A stretch of DNA of 64,000 nucleotides from a phage, in the sequence record OZ336093.1; one strand, given 5' to 3'. Positions 5,709-61,147 of this stretch are shown piece by piece (the first letter of the stretch is position 1; every line of letters starts with the position of its first letter). Under the pieces are notes generated by a model, which was not told where the DNA came from, did no database searches, and saw only the letters and a program-made list of their open reading frames with translations. Both the position numbers and the translations under genes were made by a program.

Positions 5709-5864
5709 TTGTACTCTCGCCTGTGTCAGATTTTATATAAGACCTCTCACTACGTCTTTTAATGAAATGTACAACGCATTTTGGTGTATTTTTTACATCT
5801 TTAATGTGCAACCTTTCGAAACTGTGTACTGTGAAGATTGCATCTGTCATTGTTTGCTTAGATT

Positions 5865-6957: not shown

Positions 6958-9657
6958 TTAGTGAACCTCAAGCCAGCTTTTACCAACCTTACCAGTACCT
7001 ATAACAAGTGTTTCTTTCTTAAGACCTAAGTTTTTAGAAGCTTGTCCATAATACCAGTCAGTAACTGCTTTCACTTCTGCCGTCATACTTTCTGGACATT
7101 CCCAACTTGTTTCATCGTGATATGCGCAGAGCAAACGAGCACCAATAGCTGGTTGACGACCATTCAACTTCATCAAACCTTCGTCAATCATACGACGACA
7201 AGCAAGGTTAATTGCCTCATTTTGAATCTGAGCCTCTGAACCCATCAAAAGATAGTTCAACAGTTTGTGTGGAGATTTACACCACAACCAAGCTCCAGCA
7301 ACCTTTACAAAACCCCCTTTAGAGATTGCAGCAGTCTTACCAAACACCTCTTCAAGTGCCTTCTTAGTTGCTTTGTAGTCAGCTTCCAAGTTATCTAGCA
7401 ACTTCTTAATTTTAGGCAAACGCACAAAGTAAGTCTGTTTAGTTAATGCACCTTCCTGAGTAGTGGCTGCCTTAATAGTTTTAGCAAACTTTTCATCACC
7501 TGCACCGAACAGTAGTGCATAGATACCATTCTTAGCTTTCTTACGACCTTTGCTAATCTCATGAAGAAGATTCTCATCCTGAGTAGCTCGACAAGTCAAG
7601 ATATCCTGCTCATCATTCAAGCTAAAGTAAATACTGTTCAGTGTATGTGCATCAGTCCCTGAATAGACAACGTACAGGTCATTCTCAGAGTCATAGCGAA
7701 GGTACTTATCAATCTCTGGGTTTAGGTACTCATCAAAATGTTTGCAGTAATAGCGTCCATCTTCTTGACGAATAAACTCAATCTCTTCTTTACCTTGCGT
7801 TACCGCTTTGGTGAAGTCTTTGTCACCCATAAAGTTACAAAGGAGAACTAGCTGAGCTGAGTTCATGTCTACAGAGACAACATTAGTACCTTCTTCACAA
7901 ATCCACACTGCCCTCATTGGTTCCCCATAGACGGCAGCACCAGACGGTACGTTTACAATACCATATTGTGTCATACGTCCAGTTGAAGTACCAAATACCA
8001 TTGCACCAGCACTAAGGCGACCATCAGGACGAATCTGGTTCAACCAACCTTTTTCATCATCCTTTGAGTTCTCAATAGTTCTGCGTCTGTGCATCAAAGT
8101 GTAGTACTTAGCAATCTTCTGTCCAAGCTCACCTTCAATCGTATCATAAGATGATTCAGTAAGTTTTGGTGAAGTACGGATTAAGCAAGGCTCAAGCAAA
8201 TCTGTGTATTTCTTCACAGACCAGTTATGCTCAATGTACTGTACACCTTCATGCTCAACATAGCTCAAACCACACCGCTCAATCATTTCCTGCCACTTAG
8301 GATGTTTTGTAATCATCTTTTTATTGTCTTTGAAACGACAAACTTTGACAGGGCGACCATCTGAGTCTTTCTTGTAGTTCCAGTCATCTGGAATCCAACC
8401 AACTGATTTCAAGTAGTCTTTAACAACTGCTACCTGAGTCATACGAGAAACTTCAAACTCAATTGGTGTATATGGTGCATCAATCAAACCTGTGTAGCGA
8501 CTTGACTCAAGTTCAAAGTGGTTAACAACGTGACTGTTATAGTACTTCACAGTTTTGACTGTTTTTACTGGCTTCCAGTCTTTGCATTTCTTGCCAATCT
8601 TTGCATTCAACTCATTGCAAATTGCACGAGCATCCTTCATTGCTACAAAACCTTCCTTGTACTCTTCACCAGTTACAGAGTTGGTTGGTGTATAGCAATT
8701 TCTCTTTTCAATGTTGAAAATCTTTGTAGTTGGCTTACCAAATGGCTTGATTTCATATGTCTGCATCTCACCGTTACGTACCTGCTGACGATACTTTGTC
8801 TTAGGGTACTTGGTAATTCTCTTCAGTCCATCTGCATGACCGAATGTTTCAACATACTCATTCCAAGCTTTTGCAAACTCTTCTCCAGTGACTTTACCTT
8901 TGGTCTTAATAGTTGGAGGTAGATGTGGTTCAACCTCTGAAGCAAGTTCATTAGTCAATTTGTCAAGCTCCTTTACATGGAACTCCATAAGCTCCTTATC
9001 AGCTTTCCAACCATTGATAGCTTGTTGGCTCATCCAGAAAGATGTCTCTTTAGCTCGCATGTAAGTTTCATAAGTGTCTATACCACACTTCTTAAGCTTG
9101 AGATACTCGTTATCAAGTGCCCGTTTAGTTTTGGCGTTAATACGGATATCTTCTACAACACGAGTGAAGATTTCTGCATTCCATACACCCCAATGCTCAA
9201 TCTCTGGTTTACGAACACCAACACGAGCACCCCATGCAGCCAAACCATGAGCACCTTTATAACCCTTTGGAGTTGGTCTATCCATCCACTGAACACGAGA
9301 CTGAATAAGAGAATCCTGAAAGAAATTACTCCACGGCTTACATTTTGGATTATCAAAGTTCCATAAATCCGGTGCAATGTGATTGAAGACCCACCAGTCA
9401 TAACCGAGGCCGTTATGGATACAAAGTCGTTTTGCCTTTAACGCAAACTCAACACCTTCACGTAAACCACCCTTAATGTACTTAGTGTACTTGTGACCGA
9501 GGATAGGCTCATCTGTAAAGACCCATACAGGTGGCTCTTCATCGTCAGATTTATAGTCTGCAAAGGCCATTACGTGAACTTTAGTGAACTCAAGGAGTAA
9601 ACCATCAGTTTCTGTATCACCAACCAAATGTAAGTTTTTAAAATCTACGTTTTCCAT
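6958..9657 (-). CDS. DNA polymerase, family A (PolI-like) with 3'-5' exonuclease domain
   Basis: Exo I motif VGDTETDG near N-terminus; motif A-like VDMNSAQLVLL, motif B-like LLFGAGDEKFAK, motif C YHDE; start at Met with AGAGGGAG RBS. Confidence 0.85.
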   Translation of the reverse strand: MENVDFKNLHLVGDTETDGLLLEFTKVHVMAFADYKSDDEEPPVWVFTDEPILGHKYTKYIKGGLREGVEFALKAKRLCIHNGLGYDWWVFNHIAPDLWNFDNPKCKPWSNFFQDSLIQSRVQWMDRPTPKGYKGAHGLAAWGARVGVRKPEIEHWGVWNAEIFTRVVEDIRINAKTKRALDNEYLKLKKCGIDTYETYMRAKETSFWMSQQAINGWKADKELMEFHVKELDKLTNELASEVEPHLPPTIKTKGKVTGEEFAKAWNEYVETFGHADGLKRITKYPKTKYRQQVRNGEMQTYEIKPFGKPTTKIFNIEKRNCYTPTNSVTGEEYKEGFVAMKDARAICNELNAKIGKKCKDWKPVKTVKTVKYYNSHVVNHFELESSRYTGLIDAPYTPIEFEVSRMTQVAVVKDYLKSVGWIPDDWNYKKDSDGRPVKVCRFKDNKKMITKHPKWQEMIERCGLSYVEHEGVQYIEHNWSVKKYTDLLEPCLIRTSPKLTESSYDTIEGELGQKIAKYYTLMHRRRTIENSKDDEKGWLNQIRPDGRLSAGAMVFGTSTGRMTQYGIVNVPSGAAVYGEPMRAVWICEEGTNVVSVDMNSAQLVLLCNFMGDKDFTKAVTQGKEEIEFIRQEDGRYYCKHFDEYLNPEIDKYLRYDSENDLYVVYSGTDAHTLNSIYFSLNDEQDILTCRATQDENLLHEISKGRKKAKNGIYALLFGAGDEKFAKTIKAATTQEGALTKQTYFVRLPKIKKLLDNLEADYKATKKALEEVFGKTAAISKGGFVKVAGAWLWCKSPHKLLNYLLMGSEAQIQNEAINLACRRMIDEGLMKLNGRQPAIGARLLCAYHDETSWECPESMTAEVKAVTDWYYGQASKNLGLKKETLVIGTGKVGKSWLEVH

Positions 9658-53153: not shown

Positions 53154-53618
53154 TTACTTTGGATATACACTGTCAAGATAAATGTCAGCTTCCATTCTAC
53201 GTCTGTTTTTCAGGCCGTTTGAAGTGACCTTCTTACCTTTTACTGTAACCTTGTTCCACCACTGCATAGCTTCTGCACAACCGACCTTATTACCAGCATT
53301 GTGGCGCTTGATAAATGTAGAGTCCTGCATAGCTGTGATACCAATGTTGTATGTTTCACTTACAAGTGCATCAAACTCATTCTGAGAAGTTGGAACCTTG
53401 ATGGCTTTGTTCACTGCTGTAACGAACTTTTCAACATCTGCAAGAAGATACTGTTCAGCTTGTTCAGCGGTAATCTTCATACCCATCTTAACAGGCTTCC
53501 CACCAATACGAATTGTCCCATACCCAATTGTGGGGATTCCAGCAGAATCTTCGTAAGACTCAAGCTTAAGACCTTCAAAGAACTTAATAGCTTCTAAACC
53601 TTTTCTTGAGAGTTGCAT
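53154..53618 (-). CDS. endolysin, glycoside hydrolase family 24 (T4/lambda lysozyme-like)
   Basis: N-terminal LEAIKFFEGLKLESYEDSAGIPTIGYG matches GH24 catalytic region. Confidence 0.8.
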   Translation of the reverse strand: MQLSRKGLEAIKFFEGLKLESYEDSAGIPTIGYGTIRIGGKPVKMGMKITAEQAEQYLLADVEKFVTAVNKAIKVPTSQNEFDALVSETYNIGITAMQDSTFIKRHNAGNKVGCAEAMQWWNKVTVKGKKVTSNGLKNRRRMEADIYLDSVYPK

Positions 53619-54751
53619 TATGCCTCCCCTGCTGTGTTAACAGTAACTGTTGCTGCATTAGATGTTACAGAGCCACCTGCACCAGTAACTACACAGGTGT
53701 AGCTTCCTGCATCAGCAGCGGTTGCACCTTCTTTGGTGTAAGTTGCAGCAGTTGCGTCTGGGATGACTTCCTCACCTTTCTTCCACTGATAACCTGTTGC
53801 ACCAGTAGCCACAACATTCAGCGTTAAGGTCTCACCTTCAGTGATTTCTTGATTGGTTGGCTGTTGAGTAATTACTGGAAGTGCGTTCACAGTTACTACA
53901 GCAGCATTAGATGTCACTGCACCACCCGCACCTGTTACAACGCAAGTATATGAGCCTGCATCTGCTGGCAGAGCACCAGACTTGCTATAGGTAGCATTTG
54001 TAGCTGAAGGAATGTCAGAGCCATCTTTCTTCCACTGGTAACCTGTCGCACCTGTTGCAGTCACTTCCAAGTTAATGCTTCCACCCTCATTGACAGTCTG
54101 ACCAGAAGGCTGCTGTGTAATCACAGGCAGTGCATTAACAGCAACTGTTGCCGCATCTGAGGTAACACTTGTTCCAGCCTCTCCAGATACAACACAAGTG
54201 TATGAGCCAGCATCAGAAGGTACTACGGACTGTTTTGTATAAGTTGCAGAGGTGGCACTAGGAATATCCTCTCCATCCTTTTTCCATTGATATCCAGTGG
54301 CATTCGTTGCAATAACACTTAGGGTAAGCGTACCACCTTCATTTACTGTTTGATTGGTTGGTTGCTGAGTGATTGCTGGTGGCTTGATAGCATCCTTCAA
54401 CTTAGCATTCAACATTGAGAATGGTTTAACTCTTGCCAGCCATTCACAATAAATTGTGTCAACGTCTTTACCATTGATAATTGCATATTGTAAGTCCATG
54501 AAGAAGTCAGAAGTTCTCATTTGAGCACCAATGCTGTAAAGCAACTCATCACTAAATGGAACTTTGTAGTCTGGTTTGTAGTCAAACTCATCGACTTCTG
54601 CAATATCAGCTTCAGGCCAATACGAACTGTAGGTAAGCGGTAAAATAGCCTCTTGATATGTTCTAAAATCATATCTCTTACCAGCCTTTACGTTTGCAAT
54701 GAAGCCCTTCACAAACTCTTTGAAGTCTGGGTAAGTCTTTGCTTTAATCAT
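53618..54751 (-). CDS. protein with three tandem Ig-like domains fused to an N-terminal domain
   Basis: three repeats of about 90 aa each containing TGYQWKKDG...DAGSYTCVV; N-terminal 120 aa paralogous to the adjacent 54748-55119 product. Confidence 0.6.
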   Translation of the reverse strand: MIKAKTYPDFKEFVKGFIANVKAGKRYDFRTYQEAILPLTYSSYWPEADIAEVDEFDYKPDYKVPFSDELLYSIGAQMRTSDFFMDLQYAIINGKDVDTIYCEWLARVKPFSMLNAKLKDAIKPPAITQQPTNQTVNEGGTLTLSVIATNATGYQWKKDGEDIPSATSATYTKQSVVPSDAGSYTCVVSGEAGTSVTSDAATVAVNALPVITQQPSGQTVNEGGSINLEVTATGATGYQWKKDGSDIPSATNATYSKSGALPADAGSYTCVVTGAGGAVTSNAAVVTVNALPVITQQPTNQEITEGETLTLNVVATGATGYQWKKGEEVIPDATAATYTKEGATAADAGSYTCVVTGAGGSVTSNAATVTVNTAGEA

Positions 54752-56747: not shown

Positions 56748-56828
56748 TTTTAAAAGGTGTTGACAGACTCTACAAAGTTGCTCTAAAGTCTGTCACATCA
56801 ACAAACAAATGAGAGAAGAGAGTAAAAT

Positions 56829-58244
56829 ATGAGCGAATTATTTAAACATGCGCACCTTCATGCAGGTCGAACTGAAAATGGTGCTGTAAACCATACTTCA
56901 TCAATGTCTGCTCTTGTAGACTTTTACAAAGCTGCTGGTTCAAGCCGTAGCAACGTAGAAATCTTACCAGACCTGTTCTACAAAGCTTTGCGTGAGGATG
57001 TTGATGTTGCAGTTCGTATTTTGCTTCATATGCGAGATGTACGAGAAGGCATGGGTGAGCGTAAAGCCTTCAGAACTGTTTTACTTCAAGCGATTGAAGA
57101 TAAGGTTTTAGAACCTACACAGGTTCTTCGCATTATGGATAAGATTGCAGAGCTTGGTCGTTTTGATGACTTCAAAATCTTCGTAGGTACTCGTTTCGAG
57201 ACAGATGCCTTCAAACATTTAGAAGCAGCATTACTAGACCCTGCAACAGCAGGTTTGGCAGCCAAGTGGCTACCACGAGTCAAACCACGTCATAAGCAGT
57301 TTGTAAAACGTTTCTGCAAGTTTGCCAACTTGAGTGAGAAAGAGTACCGCACACTGTTGTCTGCACTATCTGATACAGTTGAGCAAAAAATCTCTGCTAA
57401 TGAGTTTGGTAAGATTGACTACAGTAAGATTCCTTCACTTGCTGCTGCACGTTACCAAAACCTGTTTAACCGTAAAGATGGAGAGCGTTACAAAGCTTAC
57501 ATCGAGTCCTTATCAAAAGGTGAGACTAAGATTAACGCTGGTGCTGTTTACCCATACGATGTGATTAAATCTATTAAGTATGGTAATGCAGATGTTGCTA
57601 ATGAGCAGTGGAAAGCACTACCAAACTGGATGGCAGAAGGTGAAAACATCTTGTGCATGACTGATGTCTCAAGCTCAATGTCTTGGGTGAATCTTGGTTC
57701 AATCACTGCTCTTGATATTGGTGTATCACTTGCATTGTATGTTGCAGAACGTAATACAGGTTGCTTTAAGAATGAGTTGATGGTTTATTCAACAAACCCT
57801 CACTTCATCGAACTGAGTGGTGATTTACGAAACCGTCATCGTCAGGTGATGCGACACGTTGAATATGGCTCAACTAACTTACAAGCAGCTTTTGACCGTA
57901 TTCTTGAGACAGGTAAAAGAAACAACTTGACTCAGAAAGATATGCCAAGTAAGCTTATCATTTTCTCCGATATGGAGTTTAATCAGGTTGATGGTGCTAA
58001 TGGCCGTACAAACTTCGAAGCAATTCGAGATAAGTACGAAAAAGCTGGATATGAGATGCCACAACTGGTATTCTGGTACTTAGCAAACCGTAATGGTACT
58101 TGCGAAGTGTCTGTTAAGGATAACGGTGTAGCAATGGTATCAGGCTTCTCTCCAGCTACTTTAAAAGCTCTGCTTGGTGGTGAGAAGTTTGACCCAATCA
58201 GCGTAATGCTCAAAGCAGTAATGATTGACCGTTATATCTGGTAA
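56829..58244 (+). CDS. vWA-domain protein, possibly Ro60/Rsr-like (TROVE-vWA) RNA-binding protein
   Basis: MIDAS-like motif CMTDVSSSMS with downstream T and SDME residues at vWA-typical spacing; about 260 aa helical N-terminal region; sits directly upstream of tRNA/structured-RNA array. Confidence 0.55.
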   Translation: MSELFKHAHLHAGRTENGAVNHTSSMSALVDFYKAAGSSRSNVEILPDLFYKALREDVDVAVRILLHMRDVREGMGERKAFRTVLLQAIEDKVLEPTQVLRIMDKIAELGRFDDFKIFVGTRFETDAFKHLEAALLDPATAGLAAKWLPRVKPRHKQFVKRFCKFANLSEKEYRTLLSALSDTVEQKISANEFGKIDYSKIPSLAAARYQNLFNRKDGERYKAYIESLSKGETKINAGAVYPYDVIKSIKYGNADVANEQWKALPNWMAEGENILCMTDVSSSMSWVNLGSITALDIGVSLALYVAERNTGCFKNELMVYSTNPHFIELSGDLRNRHRQVMRHVEYGSTNLQAAFDRILETGKRNNLTQKDMPSKLIIFSDMEFNQVDGANGRTNFEAIRDKYEKAGYEMPQLVFWYLANRNGTCEVSVKDNGVAMVSGFSPATLKALLGGEKFDPISVMLKAVMIDRYIW

Positions 58245-58410
58245 AAAAGTTTTAAAAAGGGTATTGACAATGTGTTTAATACCCTTTAATATGTTCTACA
58301 TAGAAACGAAATGAGAGCTTTTCTAAGATACTGAAAAATATTTTAAAAAAGTTCTTGACAATCACTAAAAAATAATGTTAAAGTGGTTACATAGAGTTTG
58401 AAAAGTTTAT

Positions 58411-58487
58411 CTCTGTTTAGCTCAGCTTGGTAGAGCGTTCCGTTTGGGGCGGTAAGGCCGGAGGTTCAAGTCCTCCAACAGAGACCA
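58411..58487 (+). tRNA. tRNA-Pro (anticodon TGG)
   Basis: hand-folded cloverleaf, 7 bp acceptor, T-arm GGAGG-TTCAAGT-CCTCC, CCA encoded. Confidence 0.7.
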
Positions 58488-58494
58488 AATTAAT

Positions 58495-58572
58495 GTTCCA
58501 GTAGACAAAATGGTAAAGTCACCACTCTTTCAAAGTGGATATCTGAGGGTTCAAATCCCTTCTGGAACGCCA
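58495..58572 (+). tRNA. tRNA-Glu (anticodon TTC)
   Basis: acceptor GTTCCAG/CTGGAAC, anticodon loop CTTTCAA, CCA encoded. Confidence 0.7.
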
Positions 58573-58579
58573 GTTTTGA

Positions 58580-58655
58580 CAGAAGACCAATTACAGCAAA
58601 CTTAATCTTATTCATCTGAAGGTAAATCGGACAAAGAAGAGATTTGGTCTGGTCA
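58580..58655 (+). ncRNA. structured RNA element, copy 1 (5' AGAAGACCAA / 3' TTGGTCTGG closing stem)
   Basis: conserved 5' block CAGAAGACCnnTTACAGCAA and 3' block GGTCTGG; stem covaries between copies. Confidence 0.5.
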
Positions 58656-58663
58656 TTAAGAAT

Positions 58664-58740
58664 TGCGGGTATAGAGAAAGGGCGTCTCACATGTCTCATT
58701 AGCATGGTATCGGCAGGTTCGACTCCTGCACCCGCCTCCA
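58664..58740 (+). tRNA. tRNA with anticodon CAT (Met or Ile2), irregular fold
   Basis: T-arm GCAGG-TTCGACT-CCTGC and CCA present; acceptor/D-arm register ambiguous. Confidence 0.5.
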
Positions 58741-58746
58741 AATTTG

Positions 58747-58808
58747 CAGAAGACCGTATTCAGCAACAAAATACTTTTTGCGGATAAAAGAAAAAACACG
58801 GTCTGGCA
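58747..58808 (+). ncRNA. structured RNA element, copy 2 (5' AGACCGT / 3' ACGGTCT stem)
   Basis: same conserved blocks as copy 1 with compensatory stem changes. Confidence 0.5.
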
Positions 58809-58817
58809 ATGTATTAA

Positions 58818-58894
58818 GGTTAGGAAGCACATAAGGTATGTGCGGTCGCCTGTTAAGCGAATGGCACAGGGTTCGAATCCCTGACTAACCGCCA
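58818..58894 (+). tRNA. tRNA-Asn (anticodon GTT)
   Basis: acceptor GGTTAGG/ACTAACC, loop CTGTTAA, CCA encoded. Confidence 0.7.
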
Positions 58895-58903
58895 AATTTA
58901 AAT

Positions 58904-58991
58904 GTGTCGTTATCCCGTAGATGGTAGCGGTGGGGACTGTAAATCCCTTGTCATTGAGACTCGGTAGGTTCGACTCCTACACGGCACACCA
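58904..58991 (+). tRNA. tRNA-Tyr (anticodon GTA), long variable arm
   Basis: loop CTGTAAA, long variable arm, T-arm GTAGG-TTCGACT-CCTAC, CCA encoded. Confidence 0.7.
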
Positions 58992-58996
58992 ATAAA

Positions 58997-59074
58997 GGTT
59001 ATGTAGTTTAATTTGGTTAAAATGCTCCCCTGTCACGGGAGATGATGAGGGTTCAAATCCCTTCGTAACCGCCA
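58997..59074 (+). tRNA. tRNA-Asp (anticodon GTC)
   Basis: stem CTCCC/GGGAG around loop CTGTCAC, CCA encoded. Confidence 0.7.
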
Positions 59075-59135
59075 ATTTTGAGAGGGCTATTTAGCCCCTC
59101 CCTTAAAGGGTTCTTACGAGTATCCTTTAAAGGGG

Positions 59136-59211
59136 CAGAAGACCAAATACAGCAAGAATGTATGAAATTTCAAGCCAATTTAATTTTGAAAATTTAAAAC
59201 TTGGTCTGGCT
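59136..59211 (+). ncRNA. structured RNA element, copy 3 (5' AGACCAA / 3' TTGGTCT stem)
   Basis: conserved CAGAAGACCAAATACAGCAA and TTGGTCTGG. Confidence 0.5.
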
Positions 59212-59222
59212 CAACAAATTTA

Positions 59223-59356
59223 CAGAAGACCGTTTACAGCAAAACTTAAACAATCTATTTCTCCGGTAAAGAAAAGGCGAAGGTTCGATTCCTTCACTCG
59301 GCAGATGTCGAGTTGGTGTAATGGTAGCACTTAAGATGATAAACAACGGTCTGGTA
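59223..59356 (+). ncRNA. structured RNA element, copy 4, with internal tRNA-like module
   Basis: closing stem AGACCGTT/AACGGTCT; interior carries T-arm-like GAAGG-TTCGATT-CCTTC and D-arm-like GTTGGTGTAATGGTAGCAC but no complete tRNA. Confidence 0.5.
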
Positions 59357-59503
59357 ATTATCTTTGTAGATAAGTTATTAAGCTTACCTGTGAGTATGCG
59401 ACCACAAAGGGTGAAAGGGTAAATTCTAGATTTAAACCCAACAAGGCACATCGCTACAGACCTTAAGCAAGTCTGGGTAGCTTATCTACAAAGATAATTT
59501 AAT

Positions 59504-59661: not shown

Positions 59662-59738
59662 GCTGGTATAGTTAAGAAGGTTATAACACTCCCCTGATAA
59701 GGGAACATCGGTGGTTCGATTCCACCTACCAGTACCAA
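59662..59738 (+). tRNA. tRNA-Ile (anticodon GAT)
   Basis: loop CTGATAA, T-arm GGTGG-TTCGATT-CCACC, CCA encoded. Confidence 0.65.
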
Positions 59739-59753
59739 TTTCAATAAAGTTGT

Positions 59754-59782
59754 TGACATTGAGATGTGACTACTTTATAGTA
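59754..59782 (+). promoter_or_regulatory. sigma70-like promoter TTGACA-N17-TATAGT inside the tRNA array
   Basis: consensus -35 with 17 bp spacer and TATAGT -10; followed by about 200 nt with no tRNA. Confidence 0.6.
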
Positions 59783-59983
59783 ACCTTAGTTTTCGTTGCG
59801 TAGCGTCTATTTTGCAAATTTAAAATAAATGCAAACGACAATGTTTTTCTGGCAGTAGCTTGATAGGCTAAACACCAGCGAGGTCTTCCAATCCCTCATC
59901 AAAGAATTTGGCGTACTAGCCCACGGTATGATTAATAAGGTGGGCATCTTTAAGGGCTTTCTAAGAGAGTCTTTAAAGATTAA

Positions 59984-60060
59984 TGCACCCTTAGTTCAAT
60001 TGGATAGAGCAACGGTCTTCTAAATCGTTAGTTACAGGTTCGAATCCTGTAGGGTGTGCC
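59984..60060 (+). tRNA. tRNA-Arg (anticodon TCT)
   Basis: loop CTTCTAA, T-arm ACAGG-TTCGAAT-CCTGT, CCA encoded. Confidence 0.7.
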
Positions 60061-60203
60061 AATTAGTTAGCAGATTACTTAGACGACCTAAGCGGGTCTT
60101 CCTGTAGGGAGGTGGTCTGTATCTCATGTTTTCCAGAACATGTAAATAATCTGAGAAGGGGCTTTACAGTGTTGAGATAATACGGTAAGCTTCGAATTAT
60201 AGT

Positions 60204-60286
60204 ATGGGACGATGTTAAGACTCTAAGGCATGAGCAACGGCCTCCAAAACCGTTTCAAAGGGGTTCAAATCCTCCGTCCCATGCCA
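60204..60286 (+). tRNA. tRNA-Trp-like (anticodon CCA), irregular
   Basis: anticodon arm resembles E. coli tRNA-Trp (CTCCAAA loop); about 7 extra nt between acceptor and D-stem. Confidence 0.45.
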
Positions 60287-60299
60287 AAGTCTTATTAGG

Positions 60300-60387: not shown

Positions 60388-60544
60388 CCTAATAAGATTT
60401 AAAGCCAAGCTTCATTCGGATGTTGCTTTGGTATACCGCGTGTATTGTTGTACGCACTGATAAAGCACCTAGTAGGTGTCACGGAGAAGAGATAATATCA
60501 AGCTCTCCAAAGGTTCTAGTCACCGGATTAAACAAGACTATGCA

Positions 60545-60568
60545 AAGACCTTTTTAGGTCTTTTTAGA
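60545..60568 (+). terminator. hairpin terminator within tRNA array
   Basis: AAGACCT-TTTT-AGGTCTT followed by TTTT. Confidence 0.5.
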
Positions 60569-60645
60569 GGGCTTCTAAGGTTATTACAGCTTGTTGTGGA
60601 ACCTTGTTGCTTAGGTTCTTAGAAGTTCTCTAAAAAGATTTAATG

Positions 60646-60723
60646 GGAGATTGACGGTAATTGGTAAACCTACCATCCTTAGAAGTTGGTGTTTGAGGGT
60701 TCGAATCCCTTGTCTCCTACCAA
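60646..60723 (+). tRNA. tRNA with anticodon TAG (nominally Leu) on a short-variable-arm scaffold
   Basis: loop CTTAGAA, acceptor GGGAGAT/GTCTCCT, CCA encoded; weak D-stem. Confidence 0.5.
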
Positions 60724-60976: not shown

Positions 60977-61053
60977 CTGCTTTCGTATAATTGGCTATTA
61001 CACATCCCTTGTAAGGATGGAAATGCGGGTTCGAGTCCTGTGAGCAGCACCAA
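60977..61053 (+). tRNA. tRNA-Thr (anticodon TGT)
   Basis: stem CATCC/GGATG around loop CTTGTAA, CCA encoded. Confidence 0.7.
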
Positions 61054-61055
61054 TT

Positions 61056-61147
61056 CAGAGGTCAAGTGAAAGACCGCTGGTGTCAACTGAAGACCGTAAC
61101 AAATTCCACGGAGTTGAGTTAGCGGCACAACTTCAGACCTCTTTCAC
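61056..61147 (+). ncRNA. possible small structured RNA between tRNA-Thr and tRNA-Val
   Basis: about 90 nt with internal complementarity (AGTGAAAGA recurs; GAGGTC pairs with GACCTC) and no tRNA fold. Confidence 0.3.

What the first reader, a model, noticed from the sequence alone, without database searches (positions are those of the whole stretch)
56829..59356. vWA-domain (possibly Ro60/Rsr-like) protein directly upstream of structured RNAs with tRNA-like modules
The 471 aa protein has a C-terminal vWA fold with a MIDAS-like DVSSSM motif and a helical N-terminal region, the same domain order as Ro60/Rsr. In bacteria Rsr is encoded next to Y-RNA-like RNAs that mimic tRNAs. Here the gene is followed within 350 bp by four structured elements, one of which contains T-arm-like and D-arm-like modules. 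If real, this would be a phage-encoded Ro/Y-RNA-like ribonucleoprotein inside a tRNA island.
Basis: partly seen in the sequence, partly recalled or inferred. Interest (0 to 1): 0.8.

Follow-up and report, generated by a model that had tools for sequence, protein, structure and literature searches.

The report
Phage Ro60-like protein with Y-like RNAs
A Felix-O1-type coliphage encodes a ring-shaped Ro60-like protein next to four small structured RNAs, one of them a tRNA mimic. The same protein-RNA pairing recurs in phages of at least seven bacterial groups, and the RNA signature matches an unexplained class of slime-mould RNAs.

Summary

**RNAs.** Four elements sit in gaps of the tRNA array: E1 58577-58655, E2 58744-58809, E3 59133-59212 and E4 59220-59357. 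All share one module:
- a 7-bp terminal helix;
- then WWW-CAGCAA;
- then a variable interior;
- then the 3' strand plus G.

E4's interior is a permuted tRNA (T arm, closed 7-bp acceptor hairpin, U8, D arm), the same order as YrlA.

**Linkage.** The module lies beside DUF2828 genes in two independent sets: 98 hits on the gene strand against 1 opposite, and 122 against 4. It also occurs in Listeria, Mycobacterium, Staphylococcus, Enterococcus, Bacillus and Campylobacter phages. The helix covaries throughout.

**Known relatives.** No Rfam family reaches threshold. The closest consensus is Dictyostelium Class I RNA (stem, CCUUACAGCAA, ...CUG).

**Limits.** Binding, expression and processing are inferred, not shown. 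I file it as a new variant of the Ro60/Y-RNA kind.

The parts
56760..56789 (+). sigma-70-like promoter candidate upstream of the Ro-like gene (TTGACA-18-TAAAGT)
   Evidence: This is a consensus match only.
56829..58244 (+). Ro60-like protein gene (471 aa; DUF2828 + DUF7788; helical ring followed by a vWA domain with an intact MIDAS). It is the ortholog of Bas63 gp130.
58264..58384 (+). two promoter-like sites (58264-58292 and 58355-58384) ahead of the tRNA/Y-like RNA array
   Evidence: Both have a perfect TTGACA -35 hexamer. Consensus matches only.
58411..58572 (+). tRNA-Pro and tRNA-Glu, the first genes of the array that carries the elements
58577..58655 (+). E1, a short Y-like/Class-I-like RNA. 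Outer helix UGAC/GUCA, AGA bulge, helix AGACCAA/UUGGUCU, motif UUACAGCAA, 3' bulged G.
   Evidence: CM R1 44.3 bits. Rfam RF01414 19.7 bits.
58664..58740 (+). tRNA-Met separating E1 and E2
58744..58809 (+). E2, a short Y-like RNA. Outer helix UUGC/GCAA, helix AGACCGU/ACGGUCU, motif AUUCAGCAA.
   Evidence: z -2.9; 45.3 bits; RF01414 24 bits, E 0.017
59133..59212 (+). E3, a short Y-like RNA. Outer helix GGGC/GCUC, helix AGACCAA/UUGGUCU, motif AUACAGCAA.
   Evidence: z -2.2; 38.8 bits
59220..59357 (+). E4, a long YrlA-like RNA. It has the same terminal module (UUAC/GUAA; AGACCGU/ACGGUCU; UUACAGCAA) enclosing a permuted tRNA-like domain.
59254..59277 (+). E4 V-like hairpin
   Evidence: MFE folds. 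The Rfam tRNA model aligns it as an anticodon- or variable-like arm.
59279..59295 (+). E4 T arm GAAGG-UUCGAUU-CCUUC
59296..59313 (+). E4 closed acceptor-like hairpin ACUCGGC-AGAU-GUCGAGU (7 bp)
   Evidence: It is 7/7 paired in tRNA register. Across 10 homologous long forms 65/70 cells pair, against 29-38/70 when the register is shifted.
59314..59330 (+). E4 U8-G9 plus D arm GUGU-AAUGGUA-GCAC

Best explanation
The locus encodes a phage ribonucleoprotein of the Ro60/Y-RNA kind, built from a second, sequence-divergent Ro lineage (DUF2828+DUF7788) and its own class of partner RNAs.

**RNAs.** The tRNA-array transcript carries four non-tRNA RNAs. I infer that they are freed by the same RNase P and 3'-end processing that frees the neighbouring tRNAs. 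Each RNA joins its 5' and 3' ends in a 7-bp helix whose first pairs are A-U and G-C. The helix is followed by single-stranded WWW-CAGCAA, and the RNA ends in ...C-U-G.

**Docking (inferred).** I take this invariant module to be the docking site for the Ro-like ring, playing the role of the bulged Ro-binding helix of Y RNAs. E1 to E3 (66-80 nt) carry only this module plus a variable loop. E4 (138 nt) replaces the loop with a tRNA lacking free ends (T arm, closed acceptor stem, D arm), as in YrlA. That domain could present a tRNA-shaped handle to tRNA-binding enzymes or nucleases.

**Function.** The RNP most likely acts on structured RNA or tRNA metabolism during infection and in counter-defence. 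The 99%-identical Bas63 gp130 neutralises the Ppl defence system.

**Shown here or in the literature:**
- the Ro60 fold (on a predicted model);
- the RNA family, its helix covariation and its tRNA-like architecture;
- the tight, strand-specific genomic linkage of RNA and protein across phyla;
- the anti-Ppl phenotype of the ortholog (preprint).

**Inferred:** transcription and processing of E1 to E4, direct binding, and what the RNP does to its targets.
For: **Protein**
- The MIDAS residues are invariant.

**RNA in the window**
- Four exact copies of the 14-specified-base motif.
- The outer helix differs among copies by compensatory changes: UGAC/GUCA, UUGC/GCAA, GGGC/GCUC and UUAC/GUAA. E2 is UUGC/GCAA in some relatives and UUAC/GUAA in others.

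**Family-wide linkage**
- In 75 IMG/VR loci chosen only for the protein, plus Felixounavirus copies, the helix-CAGCAA-helix-G pattern gives 98 hits on the gene strand against 1 opposite.
- Register control: 81 of 437 CAGCAA sites pair at offset 3, against 3-15 at other offsets and 4 of 346 on the opposite strand.
- 79% of hits lie within 700 nt of the gene, against 13% expected.
- Loci without any tRNA carry the element 27-35 nt after the stop codon.
- An independent set of 80 bacterial or MAG loci gives 122 against 4.
- GenBank phages of Listeria, Mycobacterium, Campylobacter, Enterococcus, Staphylococcus, Bacillus and Yersinia also carry it.
- The helix is 100% paired, with 6 of 7 pairs changing on both sides. 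That alignment was selected for pairing, so searches are the unbiased controls.

**tRNA mimicry and operon context**
- for the architecture. Rfam YrlA hits two long forms in L074 (38.9 bits, E 4e-5).
- Listeria phages have RtcB 1.3 kb downstream of the gene, as in the bacterial rsr-yrlBA-rtcBA operon.

**Function**
- Bas63 gp130 counters Ppl (PMC11482910; identity).
Against: - No experiment here or in the literature found shows that E1 to E4 are transcribed as discrete RNAs or bind the protein.
- In the preprint, gp130 alone (from a plasmid or inserted in T7, without the phage RNAs) restored plaquing on Ppl hosts (PMC11482910). The RNAs are therefore not needed for that activity, or host RNAs substitute.
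- The protein fails Pfam TROVE. A sequence profile reaches Ro60 only at E 0.6.
- The Rfam Y_RNA and YrlA models do not detect E1 to E4, and the known Ro-binding motif is absent.
- About 30% of homolog loci show no element with my pattern or CM.
- The fold evidence rests on a predicted model.
Confidence: 0.7

Rival explanations
1. The elements are stable RNAs or processing punctuation of phage tRNA operons. On this view they sit near the DUF2828 gene only because both travel with tRNA arrays, and there is no specific RNP.
For: In the window the elements fill inter-tRNA gaps. Many homolog loci have tRNA arrays on the same strand.
Against: Loci with no tRNA within 6 kb (L011, L012, L014, L015, L018, L023, L025, L027) carry the element 27-35 nt after the stop codon. 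Hits cluster within 700 nt of the gene at 6 times the uniform expectation. Other inter-tRNA gaps of the window lack the motif.
Confidence: 0.1
2. The elements are cis-regulatory UTR structures of the Ro-like mRNA, for example autoregulatory binding sites or stabilisers, rather than separate trans-acting RNAs.
For: They lie on the same strand. They often start within about 30 nt of the stop codon, or sit directly upstream of the start codon, so co-transcription is likely in many loci.
Against: Position varies between upstream and downstream (40 against 30 in the viral set; 113 upstream against 8 downstream in the genome set). Copy number ranges from 1 to 7. In the window, two promoter-like sites and two tRNAs separate the gene from E1, and E3/E4 lie about 0.9 kb away. 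E4-type members are complete tRNA mimics. The look-alike Class I RNAs are free 42-65 nt RNAs (PMC7919456).
Confidence: 0.1
3. The protein is a stand-alone anti-defence inhibitor of Ppl. The RNAs have an unrelated role, for example as decoys for tRNA-targeting nucleases.
For: gp130 alone rescues T7 on Ppl hosts (PMC11482910). Phage tRNA islands are linked in the literature to evasion of tRNA nucleases.
Against: This does not explain why the RNA module tracks the gene, strand-specifically, across phages of Proteobacteria, Firmicutes, Actinobacteria and Campylobacterota. It also does not explain why the protein keeps a full Ro60 architecture.
Confidence: 0.08
4. The repeats are relics of a miniature mobile element with terminal inverted repeats (AGACC...GGTCT), or degenerate tRNA pseudogenes.
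For: They are direct repeats with inverted termini. E4 has tRNA pieces, and Rfam tRNA scores it at 22 bits.
Against: The inverted termini covary freely between lineages, while the asymmetric CAGCAA and the 3' G stay fixed and strand-locked to a neighbouring gene. E1 to E3 have no tRNA features. E4's tRNA parts are in permuted order with an exact 7-bp register conserved across phyla. That is selection on an RNA, not decay.
Confidence: 0.02

Closest known systems
Ro60/Rsr with Y RNAs (bacterial YrlA/YrlB, D. radiodurans Yrn1; phage phiLo Ro60 with Yrl1/Yrl2)
   Same: - A ring of helical repeats plus a vWA/MIDAS domain.
- The gene is flanked on the same strand by one or several small RNAs whose 5' and 3' ends pair.
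- One RNA carries a tRNA-like domain in the order V-T-acceptor-D (PMC4201824).
- Short and long RNAs occur side by side, like YrlB and YrlA.
- RtcB is nearby in Listeria phages.
   Different: - The protein is Pfam DUF2828+DUF7788, not TROVE, with 11-17% identity to solved Ro60s.
- The RNA docking motif is WWWCAGCAA next to a plain 7-bp helix, instead of GNCGAA or GGUCCGA in a bulged helix.
- Rfam YrlA does not detect E4. It reaches 29-39 bits, against a gathering score of 69, on some relatives.
- In this phage the RNAs are embedded in a 26-tRNA array.
Dictyostelium Class I RNAs (Rfam RF01414)
   Same: - A short covarying stem joins the 5' and 3' ends, with an invariant G pairing to the C of a 3' CUG(U).
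- The conserved motif CCUUACAGCAA directly follows the 5' stem strand. The phage consensus is NNUUACAGCAA.
- The interior is variable, with an A-rich run before the 3' strand, and the length is about 60 nt (PMC7919456).
- RF01414 aligns full length (model 1-56) to E2 (24 bits), E1 (19.7 bits) and two Staphylococcus phage elements (22.4 bits each).
   Different: - All scores are below the gathering score of 41.5.
- Class I RNAs are dispersed nuclear genes with a DUSE promoter, and were reported as unique to Dictyostelia.
- Their known direct binder is the RRM protein Rnp1A/CIBP, not a Ro-like protein.
- I could not establish whether Dictyostelium has a DUF2828 protein.
Bas63 (JohannRWettstein) gp130, an anti-Ppl counter-defence protein (preprint PMC11482910)
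   Same: It is 464/471 identical and sits at the same locus upstream of the same tRNAs. All four elements are present in Bas63. The authors noted the Ro60-like fold and guessed at Y RNAs.
   Different: They proposed that some annotated tRNAs are the Y RNAs. The actual candidates are the unannotated inter-tRNA elements, which in Bas63 are partly covered by the spurious reverse-strand ORFs bas63_0137 and bas63_0138. No RNA motif, family or distribution was described.
Phage T4 tRNA-cluster stable RNAs (species 1 and 2, rnaC/rnaD). Recalled from my own knowledge and not tested here.
   Same: They are small stable RNAs of unknown function, encoded within a phage tRNA cluster and matured with the tRNAs.
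   Different: No Ro-like protein partner is known. Their sequences were not compared here.

Membership tests
Ro60/Rsr (TROVE + vWA) proteins | N-terminal helical-repeat ring followed by a C-terminal vWA domain | tested here: met
Ro60/Rsr (TROVE + vWA) proteins | Sequence match to the Pfam TROVE domain (PF05731) | tested here: not met
   hmmscan at E up to 1 finds only PF11443 (DUF2828) and PF25043 (DUF7788). A profile against PDB reaches the Ro60 vWA domain only at E 0.6. Some eukaryotic DUF2828 proteins are nevertheless named 'TROVE domain-containing protein' in UniRef.
Ro60/Rsr (TROVE + vWA) proteins | MIDAS motif DxSxS...T...D in the vWA domain | tested here: met
   D279, S281, S283, T349 and D381 are invariant in 36 homologs.
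Ro60/Rsr (TROVE + vWA) proteins | Binds Y RNAs and misfolded RNAs | not testable with these tools
   Only genomic linkage is available.
YrlA-type bacterial Y RNA (RF02553) | Rfam covariance-model score at or above the gathering score (69 bits) | tested here: not met
   No YrlA hit on E4 even at E up to 10 in a 151-nt search. Related long forms in L074 score 38.9 and 28.7 bits.
YrlA-type bacterial Y RNA (RF02553) | tRNA-like domain in the order V, T arm, closed acceptor-like stem-loop, D arm, enclosed by the 5'/3' stem | tested here: met
   E4: T arm 59279-59295, acceptor hairpin 59296-59313 (7/7 paired), U8-G9, D arm 59316-59330. Ten homologous long forms keep the register, with 65/70 cells paired.
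YrlA-type bacterial Y RNA (RF02553) | GNCGAAN0-1G motif near the 5' end (PMC4201824) | tested here: not met
   All members carry WWW-CAGCAA at that position instead.
YrlA-type bacterial Y RNA (RF02553) | Encoded within 4 kb of the Ro60 ortholog on the same strand | tested here: met
   E1 to E4 lie 333-1113 nt downstream on the same strand. The same holds family-wide.
Dictyostelid Class I RNA (RF01414) | Rfam covariance-model score at or above the gathering score (41.5 bits) | tested here: not met
   E2 24.0 bits, E1 19.7 bits, E4 12.8 bits. Staphylococcus phage elements score 22.4 bits.
Dictyostelid Class I RNA (RF01414) | Short covarying stem joining the 5' and 3' ends, with an invariant 5' G paired to the C of 3' CUGU | tested here: met
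   G5 and C70 are invariant, the following G72 is invariant, and the other pairs covary. The window elements end in CUGG. Most other lineages end in CUG plus U or A.
Dictyostelid Class I RNA (RF01414) | 11-nt motif CCUUACAGCAA adjacent to the 5' stem strand | tested here: met
   E1 AAUUACAGCAA, E4 GUUUACAGCAA, E3 AAAUACAGCAA, E2 GUAUUCAGCAA. CAGCAA is invariant in 30 diverse members. The first two motif positions are part of the helix in phages.
Dictyostelid Class I RNA (RF01414) | Dictyostelid nuclear gene with a DUSE promoter about 60 nt upstream | tested here: not met
   This is a phage locus with sigma-70-like promoters.
tRNA | Cloverleaf with free acceptor ends and an anticodon arm, detected by ARAGORN or by Rfam at 29 bits or more | tested here: not met
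   ARAGORN does not call E1 to E4. Rfam tRNA scores 22 bits on part of E4. The acceptor stem is closed by a loop.
Bas63 gp130-type Ppl counter-defence protein | Orthology to bas63_0130 | tested here: met
   99% identity over 471 aa with the same synteny. The anti-Ppl activity is taken from PMC11482910 and was not tested here.

The most novel reading that the evidence does not exclude
The helix-WWWCAGCAA-...CUG RNAs of phages and bacteria and the Class I RNAs of Dictyostelia are one ancient RNA family. It would be the cognate 'Y RNA' of a second Ro lineage, the DUF2828+DUF7788 proteins. Those proteins also occur in plants, fungi, Naegleria, Chromera and giant viruses.

If so, Class I RNAs (function open since 2004 and thought unique to social amoebae) would be partners of a Ro-like protein. 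The unknown-function protein DDB_G0281243, which co-purified with Class I RNA DdR-21, is the obvious candidate. Similar unrecognised RNAs should then exist in other DUF2828-bearing eukaryotes.
Probability: 0.3. Interest if true: 0.92.

Novelty: new variant of a known kind. Interest (0 to 1): 0.8.

Why it matters
- **It gives a DUF a partner.** DUF2828/DUF7788 is a very large domain-of-unknown-function family: 710 phage records, thousands of metagenomic proteins, and plants, fungi and protists. This work gives it a concrete, testable RNA partner with a simple signature.
- **It widens Ro60/Y-RNA biology.** The system extends to a second protein lineage with a different docking motif.
- **It explains unannotated gaps.** Some gaps, and some spurious small ORFs, in phage tRNA islands are accounted for.
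- **It links to defence.** The ortholog gp130 defeats the Ppl defence system. The RNAs therefore offer a handle on a counter-defence mechanism and on what Ppl attacks.
- **It touches an old puzzle.** If the resemblance to Dictyostelium Class I RNAs reflects common descent or a shared protein partner, a 20-year-old orphan RNA class becomes directly testable.

Tried and rejected
- **Rfam.** At gathering thresholds on the window and on 11 distant loci it returned only tRNAs. E-value mode gave no Y_RNA or YrlA hit on E1 to E4.
- **Sequence searches against PDB.** A single-sequence search found nothing, and a profile gave E 0.6 to Ro60.
- **PADLOC.** No match.
- **Literature on DUF2828.** Nothing relevant.
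- **Listeria phage CKA15.** I first suspected that its hyper-abundant transcripts (CKA15_059-061, PMC12282133) were family members. They are not. That region is a ROOL RNA, and the family members lie between CKA15_056 and CKA15_055.
- **Reverse association test.** Searching the pattern AGGN5TTACAGCAAAC in IMG/VR was weak, because the scan stops at 120 mostly random matches. Of 8 matches with the helix, 4 had the protein in the stored stretch. Of 112 without the helix, 1 did.
- **Attempts to learn whether Dictyostelium DDB_G0281243 is a DUF2828 protein all failed:**
  - the afdb50 library was unavailable;
  - the Avesson 2011 paper is not held;
  - the supplements hold nothing;
  - searches seeded with an Arabidopsis-like probe written from memory, which proved 98% identical to a real Arabidopsis protein, and with protist homologs listed Naegleria, Willaertia, fungi, Chromera and plants but no Dictyostelium. 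This is inconclusive, not negative.
- **Explanations considered and rejected.** The terminator, pseudogene and MITE readings are rejected for the reasons given under rival explanations.


Full report
**What the window is.** The region is 96-97% identical to Felixounavirus genomes such as Escherichia typing phage 1, LF110P2 and JohannRWettstein/Bas63. ARAGORN finds 26 tRNA genes between 58411 and 63556, all on the + strand, and Rfam confirms 24 of them.

**The protein.**
- ORF 56829-58244 encodes 471 aa.
- Pfam assigns DUF2828 (PF11443, 101 bits) and DUF7788 (PF25043, 147 bits), with no TROVE hit. PHROGs assigns phrog_850, 'RNA-binding protein'.
- A 36-sequence alignment shows an intact MIDAS set: D279, S281, S283, T349 and D381.
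- The AlphaFold2 model is confident (pLDDT 87, pTM 0.88). It has helices through residue 263 and then an alpha/beta domain.
- The Foldseek top ten are all Ro60-family chains aligned over the full length: phage phiLo Ro60, Xenopus and human Ro60, and Rsr. E-values are 4e-9 to 1e-7. vWA-only proteins follow after a gap.
- By sequence alone the link is invisible: profile against PDB gives E 0.6.
- So the protein works like a Ro60 by fold, but it is not a TROVE member by the Pfam test.

**The RNAs in the window.**
- AGAAGACCNNNNNCAGCAA occurs exactly four times with 0 mismatches. Each copy is followed by the complement of its own 5' strand plus G.
- The common anatomy has these parts, in order:
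  - a 4-bp outer helix that differs between copies by compensatory changes (UGAC/GUCA, UUGC/GCAA, GGGC/GCUC, UUAC/GUAA);
  - a 5' AGA bulge;
  - a 7-bp helix, AGACCNN/NNGGUCU;
  - single-stranded WWW-CAGCAA;
  - a variable interior;
  - a 3' bulged G.
- Among close relatives E2 is either UUGC/GCAA or UUAC/GUAA.
- MFE folds recover this closing stem for E2 to E4.
- The elements fill gaps between tRNA-Glu and tRNA-Met (E1), between tRNA-Met and tRNA-Asn (E2), and after tRNA-Asp (E3, E4).
- Perfect -35 promoter-like sites precede the gene (56760) and the array (58264, 58355).

**The RNA family and its link to the protein.**
- *First distant relative.* In L007, where the protein is 47% identical, the same module appears with different helix sequences: AGAGCAC/GUGCUCU, AGAGCAG/CUGCUCU and AGGACAC/GUGUCCU. 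One long copy carries a T loop.
- *Pattern scan.* I searched for NG-N5, N3, CAGCAA, then 15-190 nt, then the perfect complement (at most one G-U) plus G. Over the window and 81 loci this gave 98 hits on the gene strand and 1 on the other.
- *Register control.* 81 of 437 CAGCAA sites pair at the model offset. Other offsets give 3-15, and the opposite strand gives 4 of 346.
- *Position.* 79% of hits lie within 700 nt of the gene, against 13% expected.
- *Loci without tRNAs.* Eight loci with no tRNA nearby carry the element 27-35 nt after the stop codon.
- *Covariance model.* A model built from 30 short members (R1) finds 86 hits on the gene strand against 4 weak ones opposite. These include members my pattern missed.
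- *GenBank phages.* The module flanks the homolog in Listeria LMSP-25 and CKA15, Mycobacterium Lolly9, Campylobacter CPX, Enterococcus EfV12-phi1, Staphylococcus S-CoN_Ph11, Bacillus Nate and Yersinia P778.
- *Independent set.* 80 bacterial or MAG loci gave 122 hits against 4, with up to seven tandem copies.
- *Covariation.* Helix pairing in the alignment is 100%, with 6 of 7 pairs changing on both sides. That alignment was selected for pairing. The unbiased evidence is the strand, register and position controls.

**Long forms are permuted tRNAs.**
- 18 of 42 long members have a canonical T arm.
- With the T arm and D arm as fixed anchors, the 7 nt right after the T arm pair with the 7 nt right before U8 in 65 of 70 cells. 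Shifted registers give 29-38 of 70. Every sequence has a different stem.
- E4 reads GAAGG-UUCGAUU-CCUUC, ACUCGGC-AGAU-GUCGAGU, U8-G9, GUGU-AAUGGUA-GCAC. A V-like hairpin precedes it.
- This is the V-T-AS-D order described for YrlA (PMC4201824).
- Rfam YrlA hits two long forms in L074 at 38.9 and 28.7 bits, against a gathering score of 69. It does not hit E4.

**Short forms look like Dictyostelium Class I RNAs.**
- The only non-tRNA Rfam model that repeatedly lands on the elements is RF01414. It aligns full length, on the right strand, in two unrelated phages:
  - E2 at 24.0 bits;
  - E1 at 19.7 bits;
  - E4 at 12.8 bits;
  - two Staphylococcus phage elements at 22.4 bits each.
- The RF01414 consensus is GaUcuC-CUUACAGCAA-...A-rich...-GagAuC-UG. 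This has the same architecture and motif as R1's consensus, AAGGuUgc-UUACAGCAA-...AAAAAAA-ugcAaCC-UG.
- Kjellin et al. describe Class I RNAs as follows (PMC7919456):
  - they are 42-65 nt long;
  - a covarying terminal stem joins the ends;
  - an invariant 5' G pairs with the C of 3' CUGU;
  - an 11-nt motif sits next to the 5' stem strand;
  - 'no evidence ... in any other organism'.
- All scores are below the gathering score of 41.5, so I do not file the elements as RF01414 members.

**What was already known.**
- Homologs are annotated 'RNA-binding protein' (RefSeq and PHROGs), 'Ro-like RNA binding protein' (mycobacteriophages) or 'vWFA protein'.
- Chen et al. 2014 found YrlA next to TROVE-annotated Ro60 in 254 bacteria and 22 phages (PMC4201824).
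- A Thermus phage Ro60 binds two Yrl RNAs (PMC12135203).
- The Listeria CKA15 study noted an Rsr-like HHpred hit for CKA15_055, detected the protein in virions, and speculated about Y RNAs (PMC12282133).
- The PhageMaP preprint reports five things about Bas63 gp130 (PMC11482910):
  - it is 464/471 identical to this ORF;
  - it counters the Ppl defence system;
  - it works when moved alone into T7;
  - it is structurally similar to Ro60;
- None of these sources describes the helix-CAGCAA family, its distribution, or the Class I resemblance.
- In Bas63 the elements are unannotated and partly overlaid by the reverse-strand ORFs bas63_0137 and bas63_0138.

**Mechanism.**
- The best-supported reading is a Ro60/Y-RNA-type RNP. 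The invariant terminal module is the protein docking site, and the variable or tRNA-like interior is the effector part.
- Evidence for binding is purely comparative, but it is of the same kind and strength that defined YrlA.
- The anti-Ppl result gives the protein a phenotype. It also shows that the phage RNAs are dispensable for that phenotype in T7.
- The RNAs may therefore gate or retarget the protein, serve other functions, or be replaceable by host RNAs.
- The RtcB ligase and an HD phosphohydrolase just downstream in Listeria phages, together with the recurrent tRNA-array context, point to tRNA or structured-RNA handling.

**Eukaryotic side.** DUF2828+DUF7788 proteins occur in plants, Naegleria, Willaertia, Zoopagomycota, other fungi, Chromera and Pacmanvirus. 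UniRef names some of them 'TROVE domain-containing protein'. I could not determine whether Dictyostelium has one. The bioRxiv version of the Kjellin paper lists an unknown-function protein, DDB_G0281243, among the four proteins pulled down with Class I RNA DdR-21. Testing that protein is the key next step.

**Verdict.** It is a new variant of the Ro60/Y-RNA kind whose RNA component appears undescribed. It has unusually broad distribution and a possible tie to an orphan eukaryotic RNA class.

Noticed in passing
window 59358-59503 (+): A 146-nt stretch between E4 and tRNA-Lys folds into a multi-branched structure closed by a 22-bp terminal stem (MFE -46.4 kcal/mol, z -5.5, 0 of 200 shuffles as good). 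It lacks the CAGCAA module and matches no Rfam family. In Bas63 it is covered by the reverse-strand ORF bas63_0138.
   Followed up: partly
L082 2428-2979 (Listeria phage LMSP-25), equivalent to L091 about 1630-2180 (phage CKA15): A ROOL RNA (RF03087, 88.5 bits, E 1.7e-16, just under the gathering score of 99.1) lies between the tRNAs and the Ro-like gene. It coincides with CKA15_059-061, which the CKA15 paper reports as up to 67% of phage transcripts and of unknown nature. That paper did not identify it as ROOL.
   Followed up: partly
L050 5734-5834: A sequence that ARAGORN and Rfam call tRNA-Thr (5753-5824, 52.9 bits) sits entirely inside a helix-CAGCAA...helix-G element. This is a non-permuted tRNA enclosed by the Y-like terminal module.
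   Followed up: no
L082 6075-8019 (Listeria phage LMSP-25): A metal-dependent phosphohydrolase and an RtcB-type 'tRNA splicing ligase' lie 0.6-1.3 kb downstream of the Ro-like gene on the same strand. This is reminiscent of the bacterial rsr-yrlBA-rtcBA operon.
   Followed up: no
window 59738-59984, 60062-60299, 60390-60644, 61053-61147 (+): Other long gaps in the tRNA array hold unexplained sequence.
- 59795-59984: weak tmRNA-like hits.
- 60206-60280: a tRNA-like sequence (tRNA-Sec model, 22 bits) that ARAGORN does not call.
- 60550-60649: a 32.7-bit hit to a plant miRNA model, probably a generic hairpin.
- 61053-61147: a structured 95-nt stretch (z -3.0).
A promoter-like site with 11/12 matches sits at 59753.
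   Followed up: partly
L292 3258-3532 (Bas63): The annotated reverse-strand 'hypothetical proteins' bas63_0137 and bas63_0138 overlap E3, E4 and the following structured element. They are probably not genes. Any knockout phenotypes assigned to them would really report on the RNAs.
   Followed up: partly
L073 4253-4443: A group I intron-like match (RF00028, 40.9 bits, E 5e-7, gathering score 50) lies next to tRNAs in an IMG/VR phage contig.
   Followed up: no
L085 8184-8305 (Aeromonas phage Aeh1): An annotated 122-nt 'tRNA-Val' is far too long for a tRNA, and a weak R1 hit overlaps it (8233-8315, 17.6 bits). No clear helix-CAGCAA element was found next to the Aeh1 homolog.
   Followed up: no
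window 53618-54751 (-): An ORF with three tandem Ig-like repeats (QQPxxQTVxEG...GATGYQWKK...AGSYTCVV) resembles a Hoc-type capsid decoration protein. It is unrelated to the finding.
   Followed up: no
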